This document shows, piece by piece, positions 2,722 through 21,171 of a stretch of 64,000 bases of DNA. Position numbers and translations under genes: made by a program. The stretch lies in the IMG/VR virus record IMGVR_UViG_3300025117_000031, positions 32,001 to 96,000 of that record. One strand, written 5' to 3'. How positions within the stretch are numbered: the first letter of the stretch is position 1; each line of letters starts with the position of its first letter. Origin of the DNA: a virus. Below the pieces are notes generated by a model, which ran no database searches, had not been told where the DNA came from, and saw only the letters and a list, made by a program, of their open reading frames with translations.

Positions 2722-4053
2722 TTATAGCAGATCTTCGACGTCTTGATAGTTGTCGTTATCCTTGGCGATTCCTTCGAACAGCTTAAAAAGCCAACCCTTG
2801 TGCTTTAGAATATCTGTTCCACTTTGACTTTCATATCTAACACAAACGCCCTCTCGAATGTGACGAGGATCGAGGGGATCTGGGCCTTGAGTAAGCTTTT
2901 CGCACTTTTCCAAAAGAGCATCGAAATTCCCATCATAGAAAAATGTCTCATAGACGTGTACAGTTTCGAGTCCCATCTTGTTACAGCGCTCGACGACTTG
3001 GCCCCAAGGCAATTCATAAACATCTCCGTCTTCATTTGTCTGCGTAATACGATAAATAAAAAGACGGTTCTGCTTTAGTGGGTCTTCTGCGTTGCAACCA
3101 TAGGTGTAAAGAATTTGTTCCCCATACTTCTTTGCAACAGAAGGCTCCTTGGTTGTAGAATGAGGAGGCATAATGGAGGCGCCGGTATCGGTAAAGCCGA
3201 CGATTTCTCCATAAATTGTTTCTCCCTTGCGAACTCCACAAGAAGAAAGAAGCTTATGATACTTCTCGCGGTAATTACCACCATGGAAAGGGTCCTCGAA
3301 AGTTCGCTCTCCGTGATTTAGAATTGTACGACGAGTCCCCGAAACGTAAGAATATTCCCTCTCTTCAAACTTGGGACCGCCAATCTTTTCGGCAACTCGA
3401 TTCCAAATTAGCTTTGGAAGAGAAAGCTCCTTGCGAGAAAAAGTGTAAGAAAATCGCATACTTGTGCCGTGGCACTTGGAAGAGATATGGATCAACGCTC
3501 CGACTGGAATTTGCCCAGAGCAGAAGCGAATTTGCTTAGTCTCAAAGTGTTCCTTAAACAAGGGATACTTCTTTTCCTTGGCAAGGCGCTTCTTCCAAAG
3601 AGAAGAAATCTTATTCTTATGCTTCTCGCTAGAAAGACTTCGCCGAGAAGCCTTTGGAATATACTTGAAGCAAACAGACTTTCCGTTCAGCTCCGTAAAG
3701 GTGTAGTTCTCGGAAAGAACGTCGGTCTTGATTCCGGTCCATTCAACAAAAGAAAGAGGACACCAAAATCCTTCGGAGATTTCTCCTCGGAACTTTTGAT
3801 CTCGAACTCGGCCATTCTTATCAAAATAACCACCCATCTTTTCACCAGTATCAGGATGGGTTTGATAAAGACGATTAGTAACAAGCATGTCCTTCGACAA
3901 AGCACCGTCGGAAGGAAAGAAGATTCCCATCTGTCCTTCTGAATTATCAAGTCCCACAACAACCTGATTACCAACGACAGTTGCTAGCTGCACCCTATCG
4001 GCATTGGGATGCTTGCGGACATTCTTCAGCGGGGCAATAATTGCTTGATACAT
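2722..4053 (-). CDS. ATP-dependent RNA ligase (DRB0094/Rnl2-like) with N-terminal OB-fold RNA-binding domain
   Basis: N-terminal VRKHPNADRVQL; motif I SKCHGTS, IYGEIVG, REGVCVR, LKHK; RBS GGAG. Confidence 0.85.
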   Translation of the reverse strand: MYQAIIAPLKNVRKHPNADRVQLATVVGNQVVVGLDNSEGQMGIFFPSDGALSKDMLVTNRLYQTHPDTGEKMGGYFDKNGRVRDQKFRGEISEGFWCPLSFVEWTGIKTDVLSENYTFTELNGKSVCFKYIPKASRRSLSSEKHKNKISSLWKKRLAKEKKYPLFKEHFETKQIRFCSGQIPVGALIHISSKCHGTSMRFSYTFSRKELSLPKLIWNRVAEKIGGPKFEEREYSYVSGTRRTILNHGERTFEDPFHGGNYREKYHKLLSSCGVRKGETIYGEIVGFTDTGASIMPPHSTTKEPSVAKKYGEQILYTYGCNAEDPLKQNRLFIYRITQTNEDGDVYELPWGQVVERCNKMGLETVHVYETFFYDGNFDALLEKCEKLTQGPDPLDPRHIREGVCVRYESQSGTDILKHKGWLFKLFEGIAKDNDNYQDVEDLL

Positions 4054-11554: not shown

Positions 11555-12316
11555 TCAAGCGGGAAATTTACATCCGGCATCTTTTAAAAGCTTCACGACC
11601 TCAACATGGCCGTTTCCCGAAGCCCATAGGATGGCACGGTTGTCACCGGCCGTTGGATCAACCCTTTTGTCGGAAAGAAGAATCTTCAAGACCTCAACAT
11701 GGCCTCTTTCCGAAGCCCATCGGATGGCATAGTTGTCACTGGCCGTTGGATCAACCCTTTTGTCGGAAAGAAGAATCTTCACGACCTCAACATGGCCGTT
11801 TCCCGAAGCCCATTGGATGGCACGGTTGTCACCGGCCGTTGGATCAACCCTTTTGTCGGAAAGAAGAATCTTCACGACCTCAACATGGCCGTTTTCCGAA
11901 GCCCATCGGATGGCATAGTTGTTGTTGGCCGTTGGATCAACCCTCTTGTCGGAAAGAAGAATCTTCAAGACCTCAACATGGCCGTTTCCCGAAGCCCATT
12001 GGATGGCAAGATTGTCACCGGCCGAGGGATCAACCCTCTTGTCGGAAAGAAGAATCTTCACGACCTCAACATGGCCGTTTCCCGAAGCCCATTGGATGGC
12101 ACGGTTGTCACCGGCCGTTGGATCAACCCTCTTGTCGGAAAGAAGAATCTTCACGACCTCAACATGGCCGTTTCCCGAAGCCCATTGGATGGCACAGTTG
12201 TCATCGGCCGAGGGATCGAACACATCCATCGACAAAATTAAAGCCGCTTCCTTATCTTTGCCTTTGTTGCAAAGCTCCCAAAAAAGCCGCTCTCCTCTGT
12301 TGTGTTCTCTTTCCAT
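11555..12316 (-). CDS. ankyrin-repeat protein (7 repeats)
   Basis: Repeats of NxAIxWASxNGHVEVVKILLSDKRVDP. Confidence 0.93.
   Translation of the reverse strand: MEREHNRGERLFWELCNKGKDKEAALILSMDVFDPSADDNCAIQWASGNGHVEVVKILLSDKRVDPTAGDNRAIQWASGNGHVEVVKILLSDKRVDPSAGDNLAIQWASGNGHVEVLKILLSDKRVDPTANNNYAIRWASENGHVEVVKILLSDKRVDPTAGDNRAIQWASGNGHVEVVKILLSDKRVDPTASDNYAIRWASERGHVEVLKILLSDKRVDPTAGDNRAILWASGNGHVEVVKLLKDAGCKFPA
11591..12219 (-). repeat. seven near-identical 93-bp tandem repeats encoding 31-aa ankyrin units
   Basis: Unit starts at 11591, 11684, 11777, 11870, 11963, 12056, 12149. Confidence 0.93.
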
Positions 12317-12324
12317 TTCGGCCG

Positions 12325-12353
12325 AGGATAACAAAAATAAAAGAAGATGTCAA
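12325..12353 (-). promoter_or_regulatory. sigma70-type promoter TTGACA-17-TATCCT with extended -10 TG
   Basis: Minus strand TTGACA TCTTCTTTTATTTTTGT TATCCT; ankyrin ATG lies 8 nt after the -10. Confidence 0.8.
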
Positions 12354-17073: not shown

Positions 17074-17117
17074 TTCTCCTCCAAGAGAAAATATTATTTA
17101 TTTTGTATTGAGAAGTT

Positions 17118-17189
17118 ACCTGCCCGTTGGATTCGAACCAACATCTTCCGCCCTGACTGCGGCTGTCCTACCACTTAGACGACGACAGG
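17118..17189 (-). tRNA. aberrant tRNA or tRNA-like RNA; anticodon loop AGUCAGG (centre UCA)
   Basis: CCTGTCG/GGGCAGG acceptor (G7-G66 mismatch), D arm GTCT-AAGTGGTA-GGAC, CCGC/GCGG anticodon stem, T arm GTTGG-TTCGAAT-CCAAC; no U33, no CCA. Confidence 0.7.
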
Positions 17190-17192
17190 TTT

Positions 17193-17261: not shown

Positions 17262-18881
17262 TTACTCTCTTGCAAACCCCGAAATAACAGCCGGGGTATC
17301 AGCATCAAACCCAACGACATCCATCATACCAGAATCGTTGGGATCGGCAATTGTAAACCCAGTTGTAGACATACCGACAACAATTAGCTTTGCAGGAATT
17401 CCGCTCTTTCTACGGTAATCCCTCAGAGCTTGAACGGGTTGAATATTTCCTGCCCAAGTCTCGTTGTCTGTATACACAACAAACGTGTCGATCTCGAGAT
17501 TATTCTTCATCGCATAAATCATCGGCAGAGAACAGTCAGTTCCTCCAAAGTTTTGATTTCTAACTTTCGTGATAGCCGATTCCAAAGTGTCTCGCTTGCG
17601 AATATCGAGATCTTTAAAGCTATTAGCAAAGCCTCGGATAATCGACTCCCCTTCTGTTCTGCGAGTAACCATAGCCATAACGGCTGAAGCTACAGCACAG
17701 GAGACACTTGGAGCACCAGAAATAGGGCTGCTCATGGAGCCAGACACATCAATACCAAGCAAGAACCGTTTGTTTGCAGGCTCAATTGCCGAGAAAGAAA
17801 GATAAAAAGCGTCATCCAAAGAGTCCATGATGTCTTCGACAGTCTTCCAAGTCAAAGAGCCCTTTAGACCATGGCCAGTCTTATAGGTTTCGTGAGCAAT
17901 AAGAATAGCAAGAGGATGTAGCTTTGCCTTTCTAATTGCGTCTTCATTATGAAGAGCCTCAACAACCTTTTTAAGATTGTTCTTGTTCTTAAACAACTCC
18001 AAGCTAGACATCTTGCCAAGATTTCGGACCATAGCATTCAGAGGCATATTCTGTAGAAGTGCTTCCCAAACTGGGATTCTATTCAACATAGAAGTATTAA
18101 TTACTTCTCTTGGCAGAGAGAATTGCTCGATTAGGTCGACGATTTGGTCTTCGTTTGTGCTCGTTGAACACAGCTCTGCTGCAGCCAGACGGGCTAGCTC
18201 ACCATGCTGTTCAAGACGCACTTCGTCGGGCGAGACAATCCACTTGAACAAAGTGGAAATTGTATCCGACGAAGGAAGTGGATGCGACAAGCGGAGCAGA
18301 TCGCGATGCGACCAGCCGTCTCTTTGCTTATACTTCATAACTTGATACATCAGAGAATCAAGGTCTTTCTCCGAATACCACTTTGCAACTGCCTCGCGTA
18401 GCCCTCGACCCCAACCTCGGAAAGCTTCAACAAATTGCGCATAATGGAACAGATGCGTTCCAATACGGCAAACGTCGGGAATAGCCTGTAGAGCGGCCTT
18501 ACGCACAGAATTGTGTTTTGCAGCAGAAGCCATAGCAAGAGCAAAAATAGCAGGATCGTTTTTATGTGCCCTTCCTGCCGCACTGATTTCGACAATCTTC
18601 CGGACAACATTTAGACCATCGACTTCCTTTTTAAGAAGTCTTTCAACGCACTTGGCGTTTTTCTTAGTTAGCTGCTTTTCCGAGGCGTAAAAAGTACCAC
18701 CTTCGGAACCAAGAATAAGAAACCGTTCCAGACGATCCCAATCTGAAAGCTCAAAGCTGTATCCACCCGCAGAGTTCTGCACCATATTCTTACCAGGAAT
18801 AGGCTGCGATTGCGGGGTAACTAGTGTGGCATTCTTCTTTTCAACGGTTCTATTCGTCTTGACGTGAGCTGTGTAATCCAT
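17262..18881 (-). CDS. rsr: Ro60/TROVE ribonucleoprotein (Rsr ortholog)
   Basis: NSAGGY, RFLILGSEGGTFY, WGRGLR, KYKQRDGWSHRDLLRLSHP, RNLGKM; vWA DVSGSM, GGTDCSLPM, TDNETW, GFD; ATG 18881 with GGAGG RBS. Confidence 0.96.
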   Translation of the reverse strand: MDYTAHVKTNRTVEKKNATLVTPQSQPIPGKNMVQNSAGGYSFELSDWDRLERFLILGSEGGTFYASEKQLTKKNAKCVERLLKKEVDGLNVVRKIVEISAAGRAHKNDPAIFALAMASAAKHNSVRKAALQAIPDVCRIGTHLFHYAQFVEAFRGWGRGLREAVAKWYSEKDLDSLMYQVMKYKQRDGWSHRDLLRLSHPLPSSDTISTLFKWIVSPDEVRLEQHGELARLAAAELCSTSTNEDQIVDLIEQFSLPREVINTSMLNRIPVWEALLQNMPLNAMVRNLGKMSSLELFKNKNNLKKVVEALHNEDAIRKAKLHPLAILIAHETYKTGHGLKGSLTWKTVEDIMDSLDDAFYLSFSAIEPANKRFLLGIDVSGSMSSPISGAPSVSCAVASAVMAMVTRRTEGESIIRGFANSFKDLDIRKRDTLESAITKVRNQNFGGTDCSLPMIYAMKNNLEIDTFVVYTDNETWAGNIQPVQALRDYRRKSGIPAKLIVVGMSTTGFTIADPNDSGMMDVVGFDADTPAVISGFARE

Positions 18882-18913
18882 TTGTTCCTCCGGTTCGTTA
18901 TCGAACAAAACAC

Positions 18914-19043
18914 GCTCGTGGATAAAAATCGTCCTGGTTTAAAACCCGCTGCCTTACCACTTGGCCACAACCCGATTTCAGGTTGGCAGGAATCGAACCT
19001 GCGATCGCGGAACCAAGATAAACCAAAACTACGACCCACGAGC
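18914..19043 (-). ncRNA. yrlA: YrlA-type Y RNA with a circularly permuted tRNA domain (Y1)
   Basis: GCTCGTGG/CCACGAGC ends, GGGTCGTAG motif, CCGC/GCGG stem enclosing a T arm (GCAGG TTCGATT CCTGC), closed acceptor hairpin (CAACCTG AAAT CGGGTTG) and D arm (GCC AAGTGGTAA GGC), in T-acceptor-D order. Confidence 0.88.
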
Positions 19044-19052
19044 ACAATTTAA

Positions 19053-19167
19053 TCGGGCAAATTTAGGAGAGGAAGATTGTCCGCCTGGGCCACCGGGACA
19101 CGTCGGAATCGAACCGACTGGGCTTTTTTGCATTAGTAAAAAGATAATCCTCTTCCTTCCGGCCCGA
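19053..19167 (-). ncRNA. Y-RNA-like RNA with a T arm but no clear D arm (Y2)
   Basis: TCGGGC/GCCCGA ends, GGGCCGGAAG motif, GGAAGAGGA/TCCTCTCC helix, TTATC, T arm GTCGG TTCGATT CCGAC, TGTCC/GGACA hairpin. Confidence 0.8.
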
Positions 19168-19265: not shown

Positions 19266-19295
19266 ATCTTAGCACATTTCCGAAGCCCTTGTCAA
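19266..19295 (-). promoter_or_regulatory. sigma70-type promoter for the Y RNA-Ro60 unit: TTGACA-18-TAAGAT with extended -10 TG
   Basis: Minus-strand TTGACA at 19295-19290 and TGCTAAGAT at 19274-19266, about 25 nt upstream of Y3. Confidence 0.7.
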
Positions 19296-19321: not shown

Positions 19322-19394
19322 CTCCGGGGGCAGGGGTCGAACCTGCGACCAACGGTTTAACGGACCGCTGCTACCGCCTCTGAGCTACCCCGGA
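19322..19394 (-). tRNA. tRNA-Asn(GTT)
   Basis: TCCGGGG/CCCCGGA acceptor, G discriminator, GCGGT-CCGTTAA-ACCGT anticodon arm (C33), GCAGG-TTCGACC-CCTGC T arm; no CCA. Confidence 0.88.
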
Positions 19395-21087: not shown

Positions 21088-21171
21088 GGCCAAGAGAGGG
21101 ATTCGAACCCCCGACGAGATTGCTCTTCCTGATTACGATTCAGGTGCCTTCGTCCACTAGGCTATCTTGGC
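21088..21171 (-). tRNA. tRNA-Thr(CGT) with a long variable arm
   Basis: GCCAAGA/TCTTGGC acceptor, CCTGA-ATCGTAA-TCAGG anticodon arm, variable region AA-GAG-CAAT-CTC-GTC, GGGGG-TTCGAAT-CCCTC T arm. Confidence 0.85.

What the first reader, a model, noticed from the sequence alone, without database searches (positions are those of the whole stretch)
18914..19043. Circularly permuted tRNA mimic (YrlA-type) just upstream of the Ro60 start
Order on the minus strand is T arm (GCAGG-UUCGAUU-CCUGC), a 7-bp acceptor stem closed by a tetraloop (CAACCUG-AAAU-CGGGUUG), a UG linker, then a D arm with the conserved GG (GCC-AAGUGGUAA-GGC). The anticodon stem (CCGC/GCGG) continues into the Ro-binding helices instead of a loop. 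It therefore keeps the tRNA elbow but has no anticodon and no 3' end to charge. tRNA scanners would miss or mislabel it. Inference: it could recruit elbow-binding enzymes or act as a decoy that anticodon nucleases cannot cut.
Basis: partly seen in the sequence, partly recalled or inferred. Interest (0 to 1): 0.75.

Follow-up and report, generated by a model that had tools for sequence, protein, structure and literature searches.

The report
Phage YrlA-type tRNA-mimic Y RNA
This 130-base stretch just upstream of a phage Ro60 gene is a real small-RNA gene of an already published class (YrlA Y RNAs, tRNA look-alikes written in rotated order), so it is a new, divergent member of a known family, not a new kind of RNA.

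Summary
On the minus strand at 18914-19043, the RNA folds into two stacked terminal helices. These carry a tRNA body in rotated order: anticodon-stem strand, variable loop, T arm, a 7-bp acceptor hairpin closed by AAAU, a UG linker, D arm, then the other anticodon-stem strand.

Evidence:
- ARAGORN finds no tRNA in the native order. It calls the re-permuted sequence a tRNA as confidently as the phage's real tRNAs (0 of 200 shuffles).
- Rfam's YrlA model aligns end to end, but at 30.8 bits against a cut-off of 69.
- A model built only from 18 homologues beside other viral Ro60 genes finds it at 53.5 bits (E 4.5e-12).
- All four helices covary across those loci.

This architecture, including the phrase "circularly permuted tRNA", is already published (Chen 2014; Wang 2018), phages included. 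It is therefore a new member of a known kind.

The most likely function is inferred: it binds the phage Ro60 through its terminal stem and presents a tRNA elbow to a tRNA-binding partner during RNA repair or decay.

A 7-bp acceptor stem is the feature that made M. smegmatis YrlA an RNase P substrate that then received CCA. The scan has also noted YrlA-like phage RNAs on other DNA.

The parts
18914..19043 (-). Whole Y RNA (called Y1 here), YrlA type, about 130 nt
   Evidence: MFE fold z -4.3. Rfam RF02553 aligns full length at 30.8 bits. Leave-one-out model R2 gives 53.5 bits, E 4.5e-12, over 18917-19033.
19034..19043 (-). 5' strand of the terminal 10-bp helix (GCUCGUGGGU); pairs with 18914-18923
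   Evidence: The equivalent outer helix covaries in 19 homologues in a MAFFT/RNAalifold alignment.
19029..19035 (-). GUCGUAG, the Ro60-binding 5'-strand motif. The published consensus is GNCGAAN0-1G; one A is a U here.
   Evidence: Sequence. The same motif sits at the same distance in homologues, as GCCGAAG, GCCGGAG or GUCGGAG. Motif definition from PMC4201824.
19017..19024 (-). GGUUUAUC, equivalent to the family's nearly invariant GGUUAUC block after the second helix
   Evidence: Alignment A5 consensus GGTTATC.
19019..19029 (-). 5' strand of the 11-bp second helix; pairs with 18931-18941
   Evidence: An alternative register, CUUGGUU with AACCAGG, is used in the Rfam alignment.
19007..19011 (-). 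UCCGC, equivalent to tRNA positions 39-43 (3' strand of the anticodon stem)
   Evidence: This helix is 85% paired with 5-6 pair types per position in 22 homologues.
19003..19006 (-). GAUC, a 4-nt variable loop ending in the conserved pyrimidine (C48)
   Evidence: Feature listed as conserved in 10.1101/312249.
18986..19002 (-). T arm GCAGG-UUCGAUU-CCUGC
   Evidence: 100% paired with covariation in homologues.
18968..18985 (-). Closed acceptor hairpin: 7 bp (CAACCUG/CGGGUUG, one U-G pair) and loop AAAU
   Evidence: 97% paired, all 7 pairs covary. Stem length in homologues is mostly 6-8 bp.
18966..18967 (-). UG linker, equivalent to tRNA U8 and N9 (the family consensus is UA)
18951..18965 (-). 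D arm GCC(A)-AGUGGUA-(A)GGC. The loop is identical to the family consensus (A14, G15, G18, G19, A21). The stem differs at pairs 12-23 (C-G in place of U-A) and 13-22 (A.A in place of C-G).
18945..18949 (-). GCGGG, equivalent to tRNA positions 27-31 (5' strand of the anticodon stem)
18914..18941 (-). 3' strands of the two Ro-binding helices, with the U-rich internal-loop strand GAUUUUU between them
17262..18881 (-). Ro60 gene (539 aa), the presumed protein partner. Its start codon lies 33 nt after the 3' end of the RNA.
   Evidence: Pfam TROVE E 3e-44 and vWA_Ro60 E 4e-64. 41-42% identical to annotated Ro-like proteins of actinophages.
19266..19295 (-). Sigma-70-like promoter (TTGACA, 18 nt, TG-TAAGAT), the only strong one upstream; a candidate start of the Y RNA-Ro60 transcript
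   Evidence: Consensus scan only, 10 of 12 matches. Not evidence of function.

Best explanation
This is a gene for a YrlA-class Y RNA of an uncultivated, roughly 154-kb, low-GC phage.

Shown:
- The RNA has the two-module YrlA architecture. A terminal stem formed by its 5' and 3' ends carries the Ro60-binding 5'-strand motif. A tRNA-like module in rotated order retains every nucleotide needed for the D-loop/T-loop elbow.
- It lies 33 nt upstream of a bona fide Ro60 gene, on the same strand.
- It belongs to a covarying family found beside Ro60 in many viral contigs.

Inferred from published work on Rsr-YrlA and Rsr-Yrn1-PNPase:
- It is cut out of the leader of the Ro60 transcript.
- The terminal stem docks on the phage Ro60 ring.
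- The L-shaped module acts as a handle that brings Ro60 together with a tRNA-binding protein of phage or host.
- This would help the phage degrade or repair damaged structured RNAs, probably tRNAs, during infection.

The phage also encodes RlaP, Pth2, an Rnl2-type RNA ligase and a CCA-adding-type enzyme, which fits that theme.

More speculative: because the acceptor stem is exactly 7 bp with U at position -1, host RNase P may nick the AAAU loop, as it does in M. smegmatis YrlA.
For: - Fold and anatomy.
- Permutation test: ARAGORN finds no tRNA in native order. Rejoining at the acceptor loop with a 7-nt loop placed on the anticodon stem gives a tRNA call up to 120% of the threshold. The phage's own tRNA-Asn holds to 115% and tRNA-Thr to 120%. 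Shuffles give 0 of 200.
- Rfam YrlA aligns positions 1-114 of 114 in the same topology, 30.8 bits, E 4.4e-4.
- Model R1, built from the window module alone, hits 44 places in 80 viral Ro60 loci, all on the Ro60 strand.
- 95% of cells pair and 19 of 20 pairs show compensatory change, against about 40% pairing when partners are slid.
- After removing tandem-tRNA false positives, pairing is T 100%, D 100%, acceptor 97%, AC 85%.
- An independent MAFFT plus RNAalifold alignment recovers the T arm, acceptor, D arm and outer helix.
- Leave-one-out model R2 hits the window at 53.5 bits, E 4.5e-12. It hits about 37 of 80 loci, and the loci of the closest Ro60 relatives.
- Ro60 identity.
- Published class definition and biochemistry: PMC4201824; 10.1101/312249.
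- RNA-repair neighbours.
Against: - There is no expression, binding, processing or modification datum for this RNA. The host is unknown.
- It scores below Rfam's curated cut-off (30.8 against 69).
- The Ro-binding motif has U where the published consensus has A.
- The linker is UG, not UA.
- Two of the four D-stem pairs differ from the sequence that Wang et al. regard as conserved and possibly effector-specific.
- RlaP, Pth2 and the ATP-grasp gene are not conserved next to Ro60 in the other 80 viral loci. Only one Pth2 was found. The gene neighbourhood is therefore weak support for any particular effector.
Confidence: 0.88

Rival explanations
1. It acts mainly in cis. It would be a structured leader of the Ro60 mRNA that the Ro60 protein binds to autoregulate its own translation or stability, not a released trans-acting Y RNA.
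For: It ends only 33 nt before the start codon. A small hairpin (18906-18893) abuts the Shine-Dalgarno GGAGG at 18891-18887. The only strong promoter-like site lies upstream of the whole RNA array. No terminator-like site separates the RNA from the gene.
Against: Homologous RNAs lie downstream of Ro60 in many loci, for example L055, L067, L072, L082 and L085. Position in the leader is therefore not conserved. In M. smegmatis, YrlA and YrlB upstream of rsr are processed from one precursor into stable Rsr-bound RNAs.
Confidence: 0.07
2. It is a decoy or sponge. The anticodon-less tRNA body would soak up host tRNA-targeting defence nucleases or other elbow-binding factors, without needing Ro60 for that activity.
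For: It has an intact elbow and no anticodon loop. The phage carries a tRNA-repair tool kit, which suggests its tRNAs are attacked.
Against: Nothing tested here bears on it directly. The family is tightly linked to Ro60 and keeps the Ro-binding stem, which a simple decoy would not need. Most anticodon nucleases recognise the anticodon loop, which is absent (general knowledge).
Confidence: 0.04
3. It is not a Y RNA. It would be the junction of two decayed tandem tRNA genes, or a permuted tRNA gene that matures into a decoding tRNA.
For: Tandem tRNAs do score with the module model; about 10 of the 44 R1 hits are such false positives. tRNA genes lie nearby at 19322-19394 and 21088-21171. The T stem is identical to that of the adjacent tRNA-Asn.
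Against: The two acceptor strands pair with each other, and so do the two anticodon-stem strands. Junctions of unrelated tRNAs do not do this. There is no anticodon loop at all; the stem runs into 21 further base pairs. The flanks carry the Ro-binding motifs shared with homologues. ARAGORN finds no tRNA or tmRNA here.
Confidence: 0.01

Closest known systems
YrlA (Y RNA-like A) of bacteria and mycobacteriophages: Chen et al. 2014, PMC4201824; crystal structure PDB 6cu1 in Wang et al. 2018, 10.1101/312249; Rfam RF02553
   Same: It is encoded beside Ro60 on the same strand. The terminal stem carries the Ro-binding 5'-strand motif. The tRNA-like module has the order T arm, closed acceptor hairpin, linker, D arm, with the anticodon stem fused to the Ro-binding stem. 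The T-loop UUCGA, D-loop GG, A14, the G15-C48 Levitt pair, U8 and the terminal pyrimidine of the variable loop are all kept.
   Different: It scores 30.8 bits against a gathering score of 69. None of 19 homologous viral loci reaches that score either. The motif is GUCGUAG, not GNCGAAG. The linker is UG, not UA. Two D-stem pairs are changed. The source is a low-GC uncultivated phage, not a proteobacterium, actinobacterium or actinophage.
Mycobacterium smegmatis YrlA and YrlB (Chen et al. 2014, section read)
   Same: Both RNAs lie upstream of the Ro60 gene and are made from one precursor. YrlA has a 7-bp acceptor stem. A second Ro-bound RNA keeps only a T arm; here that is the neighbour at 19052-19159.
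Metazoan Y RNAs and nematode sbRNAs (Rfam RF00019, RF01656)
   Same: The Ro-binding stem logic is the same: a G-rich 5' strand, GNCGNAG, then a UUAUC-like block. A minimal Y RNA beside a viral Ro60 in L072 even passes the nematode sbRNA model.
   Different: Those RNAs have no tRNA-like module. The window RNA does not hit either family.
tmRNA and viral 3' tRNA-like structures
   Same: They are L-shaped tRNA mimics with a T arm.
   Different: They have a free CCA end and are aminoacylated. Here Rfam tmRNA scores 12.8 bits against 47, and ARAGORN finds no tmRNA.

Membership tests
YrlA class of Y RNAs (as defined by Chen et al. 2014 and Wang et al. 2018) | Encoded close to a Ro60/Rsr gene | tested here: met
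   The 3' end is at 18914 and the Ro60 start codon at 18881, on the same strand. The Ro60 protein has TROVE and vWA_Ro60 domains.
YrlA class of Y RNAs (as defined by Chen et al. 2014 and Wang et al. 2018) | Long stem formed by the 5' and 3' ends, carrying the conserved 5'-strand motif GNCGAAN0-1G | tested here: met
   The stem has 10-bp and 11-bp helices. The motif is present as GUCGUAG, a 6-of-7 match with A changed to U. The same position varies in homologues, for example GCCGGAG and GCCGAUG.
YrlA class of Y RNAs (as defined by Chen et al. 2014 and Wang et al. 2018) | tRNA-like module in the order variable loop, T arm, closed acceptor stem-loop, dinucleotide linker, D arm, with the anticodon stem continuing into the Ro-binding stem | tested here: met
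   MFE fold. Rfam YrlA alignment has the same topology. The permuted sequence is called a tRNA. Covariation in homologues.
YrlA class of Y RNAs (as defined by Chen et al. 2014 and Wang et al. 2018) | Conserved tertiary-interaction nucleotides: T-loop U54 U55 C56 A58, D-loop G18 G19, Levitt pair, last variable-loop pyrimidine, UA linker | tested here: met
   All are present (list of features), except that the linker is UG, not UA.
YrlA class of Y RNAs (as defined by Chen et al. 2014 and Wang et al. 2018) | Conserved T-stem and D-stem sequences (the proposed effector site) | tested here: inconclusive
   The T stem GCAGG/CCUGC is typical. The D stem is GCCA/AGGC against the family's GCUC/GAGC, so 2 of 4 pairs differ. 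This variant is unique among about 35 homologues, but other variants also occur.
YrlA class of Y RNAs (as defined by Chen et al. 2014 and Wang et al. 2018) | Bound by Ro60; pseudouridine-55 and dihydrouridine made by TruB and DusA | not testable with these tools
   Needs immunoprecipitation and modification mapping.
Rfam RF02553 (the curated YrlA covariance model) | Score at or above the gathering score of 69 bits | tested here: not met
   30.8 bits, E 4.4e-4, full-length alignment. No RF02553 hit at gathering score in 19 homologous viral loci either. I therefore file the RNA under the YrlA class by architecture, and by a leave-one-out model (53.5 bits), not as an Rfam RF02553 hit.
Canonical tRNA | Contiguous cloverleaf with free acceptor ends and a 7-nt anticodon loop | tested here: not met
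   ARAGORN finds none at this place. Rfam tRNA scores 19.6 bits against 29, covering only the 5' half. The anticodon stem leads into 21 more base pairs.
tmRNA, including two-piece permuted forms | tRNA-like domain plus a tag reading frame | tested here: not met
   ARAGORN run with -m finds no tmRNA in the genome. Rfam tmRNA scores 12.8 bits against 47.

The most novel reading that the evidence does not exclude
Host RNase P nicks the AAAU loop of the exactly 7-bp acceptor hairpin, which has U at -1, C1-G72 and A73. The new 3' end is trimmed and given CCA, possibly by the phage's own CCA-adding-type enzyme. Ro60 then carries a two-piece tRNA body with a genuine acceptor end. Such an RNA could be aminoacylated, or could serve as a bait or substrate that recruits the phage's tRNA-repair enzymes (RlaP, Rnl2-type ligase, Pth2) to Ro60.
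Probability: 0.15. Interest if true: 0.55.

Novelty: new member of a known kind. Interest (0 to 1): 0.25.

Why it matters
It adds a clear example of a Ro60-Y RNA particle to an uncultivated low-GC phage. It also shows that Rfam's YrlA model, at its curated cut-off, misses a whole group of viral YrlA RNAs: 0 of 19 loci passed. Genome annotation therefore leaves them blank or calls them tRNAs.

The effector that binds the YrlA elbow is still unknown in any organism. Here Ro60 sits next to RlaP and Pth2, and the phage also encodes an RNA ligase and a CCA-adding-type enzyme elsewhere in its genome. Such phages offer a short candidate list to test. None of this changes the understanding of the class itself.

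Tried and rejected
- A scan of viral contigs with the single Ro60 protein found nothing. An alignment of 26 Ro60 proteins was needed.
- I looked for conserved linkage of Ro60 with RlaP, Pth2, the ATP-grasp protein, the cytidylyltransferase, patatin and SpoU in 80 viral loci by tblastn. Only one Pth2 turned up, so the neighbourhood is not conserved.
- RtcB and T4 Rnl1-type ligase are absent from the phage record. The Rnl1 search rang in no control genome, so that result is uninformative.
- Tandem-tRNA junction was rejected.
- tmRNA was rejected.
- Descent from the neighbouring tRNA-Asn is suggested only weakly. The T stem is identical, and 55 of 74 positions match, 7 of which are the loop I borrowed. 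I draw no conclusion from it.
- The Sim et al. 2020 review (PMC10870794) is not held.

Full report
**What is there**

The window is part of a 153,920-base IMG/VR virus record, about 85% complete, with a GC content near 37%.

An unconstrained fold of 18905-19050 gives the following, in 5' to 3' order:
- a 10-bp terminal helix
- a 4-nt/7-nt internal loop
- an 11-bp helix
- a 7-nt/3-nt internal loop
- a four-way junction

The junction holds a 5-bp stem (UCCGC/GCGGG), the 4-nt loop GAUC, a T arm (GCAGG-UUCGAUU-CCUGC), a 7-bp hairpin closed by AAAU (CAACCUG/CGGGUUG), the linker UG and a D arm (GCC-AAGUGGUAA-GGC). The energy is -54.4 kcal/mol, z = -4.3, and none of 200 dinucleotide shuffles folds as well.

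In tRNA numbering the module keeps U8, A14, G15, G18, G19, A21, C48, U54, U55, C56 and A58. These are the nucleotides that build the tRNA elbow. I counted them directly on the sequence.

**Is it a permuted tRNA?**

ARAGORN finds no tRNA at this place in native order. I rejoined the pieces at the acceptor loop in a script and put a 7-nt loop on the anticodon stem. ARAGORN then calls a 74-nt tRNA with any of four test loops. The call survives up to 120% of the default score threshold. The phage's own tRNA-Asn survives to 115% and tRNA-Thr to 120%. Of 200 shuffled modules treated the same way, none is called.

**Family membership**

Rfam's YrlA model (RF02553) aligns over all 114 of its positions in the same topology. 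The score is 30.8 bits, below the gathering score of 69, with E 4.4e-4 in a 2.6-kb search.

The gene 33 nt downstream encodes a 539-aa protein with TROVE (E 3e-44) and Ro60 vWA (E 4e-64) domains. It is 41-42% identical to annotated Ro-like proteins of Gordonia, Mycobacterium and Streptomyces phages. It is up to 57% identical to metagenomic proteins.

I fetched 80 viral contigs that encode relatives of this Ro60.
- A covariance model made from the window's 67-nt module alone found 44 matches, every one on the Ro60 strand.
- On the resulting alignment, 95% of cells form standard pairs and 19 of 20 pairs show changes on both sides. When the partners are slid, pairing falls to about 40%.
- About ten of the weaker matches are junctions of tandem tRNA genes. 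This is the false-positive type Chen et al. also warn about.
- Without them, 22 distinct rows pair at 100% (T arm), 100% (D arm), 97% (acceptor) and 85% (anticodon stem), with several pair types at nearly every position.

A MAFFT alignment of 19 full-length candidates was not fitted to any model. RNAalifold on it recovers the T arm, acceptor hairpin, D arm and terminal helix, with compensatory changes in 19 of 23 pairs. It also shows shared sequence blocks in the flanks: GGGCCGNAG, then GGUUAUC, and on the 3' side CUUGYCC. The window has GGGUCGUAG, GGUUUAUC and UUAUCC at the corresponding places.

A model built from 18 homologues without the window finds the window RNA at 53.5 bits, E 4.5e-12, full length. 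The same model hits about 37 of the 80 loci, often two or three times in tandem. It also hits loci of the closest Ro60 relatives, fetched separately.

**What is already known**

Chen et al. 2014 (PMC4201824) reported likely Y RNAs near Ro60 in more than 250 bacteria and phages. They found that at least one per species has a tRNA-like domain. They showed that Salmonella YrlA is modified by TruB and DusA. They also showed that M. smegmatis YrlA is cleaved by RNase P and receives CCA.

Wang et al. 2018 (10.1101/312249) solved the structure of the module. [quoted passage not shown] They proposed that an unknown tRNA-binding effector recognises the elbow, in particular the conserved T and D stems.

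The scan's own earlier notes also list YrlA-like phage RNAs on other genomes. I did not use those notes as evidence.

**Where this copy differs**

1. It falls well below Rfam's cut-off. So does its whole viral group: none of 19 loci with strong matches to my model has an RF02553 hit at gathering score.
2. The Ro-binding motif has U in place of the first A (GUCGUAG).
3. The linker is UG, not UA.
4. The D loop is identical to the family consensus, but the D stem is GCCA/AGGC against GCUC/GAGC. Pair 12-23 changed in a compensatory way and 13-22 became A.A. If the effector reads the D stem, as Wang et al. suggest, this copy may have a different or relaxed partner. That is inference.
5. The acceptor stem is exactly 7 bp. 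Homologues range mostly from 6 to 8 bp, and several share the 7-bp plus tetraloop form.

**How it most likely works**

Shown: the architecture, the linkage to Ro60 and the conservation.

Inferred from the Rsr-Yrn1-PNPase and Rsr-YrlA literature:
- The RNA is released from the leader of the Ro60 transcript. The only strong promoter-like site is at 19295-19266, and nothing terminator-like lies between the RNA and the gene.
- Its terminal stem binds the Ro60 ring.
- The L-shaped module tethers Ro60 to a tRNA-binding protein.

The phage carries an RNA-repair tool kit:
- RlaP directly after Ro60, followed by Pth2, an ATP-grasp protein and a cytidylyltransferase-like protein
- a SpoU methylase and a metallophosphoesterase
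- an RNA ligase of family PF09414 at window 2803-3486
- a PF01743 (CCA-adding/poly(A) polymerase family) enzyme outside the window
- no RtcB

RlaP enzymes add one or two nucleotides to damaged RNA 3' ends and help restore repaired tRNAs (preprint 10.64898/2025.12.29.696909). Jumbo-phage genomics places TROVE proteins, RlaP and PTH2 in one repair theme (PMC7824862). These are candidates for the effector and nothing more. They are not linked to Ro60 in the other viral loci.

**The claim "no 3' end to charge"**

[quoted passage not shown] They found the 5' fragment with a CCA tail in vivo. The window RNA has the same stem length, U at the position before the would-be 5' end, and A at the discriminator position. 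Cleavage in the AAAU loop is therefore possible. I rate it at about 15% and give it as the most novel reading not excluded.

**Rivals**

- A purely cis-acting leader is unlikely, because homologues often lie downstream of Ro60.
- A Ro-independent decoy does not explain the conserved Ro-binding stem.
- A tandem-tRNA remnant or a decoding permuted tRNA is excluded by the self-complementary acceptor and anticodon strands and by the missing anticodon loop.

**Verdict**

This is a divergent new member of a published class. Interest is low to moderate.

Noticed in passing
window 19052-19159 (-): The neighbouring RNA just upstream matches the leave-one-out YrlA model at 20.5 bits (E 0.002). It shares the flank blocks GAAGGAAGAGGAUUAUC and UUUGCCC and has a perfect T arm (GUCGG-UUCGAUU-CCGAC). 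The acceptor hairpin and D arm are missing. It parallels M. smegmatis YrlB, a Ro-bound RNA with only a T arm.
   Followed up: partly
L005:2631-2816 (+): This viral YrlA-type RNA has an 85-nt insert in the place of the acceptor loop. The insert itself carries a Ro-binding motif set (GGGCCGAAG, GUUAUC, CUUGCCC), so one Y module appears nested inside another.
   Followed up: no
L072:4766-4838 (+): A short RNA beside a viral Ro60 passes Rfam's nematode stem-bulge RNA family RF01656 (40.2 bits, gathering score 38). Minimal phage Y RNAs therefore resemble eukaryotic Y/sbRNAs closely enough to be called by that model.
   Followed up: no
L062:2817-2893, L051:4852-4924, L070:399-528: tRNA finders mislabel viral YrlA modules. 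ARAGORN calls tRNA-Pro and tRNA-Trp over parts of them. Rfam's tRNA model reports a 130-nt 'tRNA' that spans two adjacent modules.
   Followed up: partly
19 viral loci (L003, L007, L010, L013, L026, L037, L041, L044, L054, L055, L057, L062, L065, L067, L070, L071, L072, L074, L079): None has an RF02553 (YrlA) hit at Rfam's gathering score, although each has a match of 57-97 bits to my viral YrlA model. The curated model has a blind spot for this viral group.
   Followed up: yes
window 17117-17190 (-): The 'tRNA-SeC(tca)' just downstream of Ro60 is a weak tRNA call. ARAGORN loses it at 105% of the default threshold, and Rfam tRNA-Sec scores 17.8 bits against 47.
   Followed up: partly
window 19322-19394 (-) compared with 18945-19011 (-): The adjacent tRNA-Asn(GUU) has the same T stem (GCAGG/CCUGC) as the Y RNA and a similar anticodon-stem strand (GCGGU against GCGGG). 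It is the closest of the four phage tRNAs to the permuted module. This could be common descent or chance.
   Followed up: partly
window 18893-18906 (-): A small hairpin, GUUCG-AUAA-CGAAC, lies between the 3' end of the Y RNA and the Shine-Dalgarno GGAGG (18891-18887) of Ro60. It may be a processing or translational signal.
   Followed up: no
window 2803-3486 (-); genome C1:124324-124695 (+), outside the window: The phage encodes a PF09414 RNA ligase (457-aa frame) and a PF01743 CCA-adding/poly(A) polymerase family enzyme (433-aa frame). No RtcB was found.
   Followed up: partly
window 11555-12334 (-): A 259-aa ankyrin-repeat protein is encoded in the same gene block, which is unusual for a phage.
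   Followed up: no
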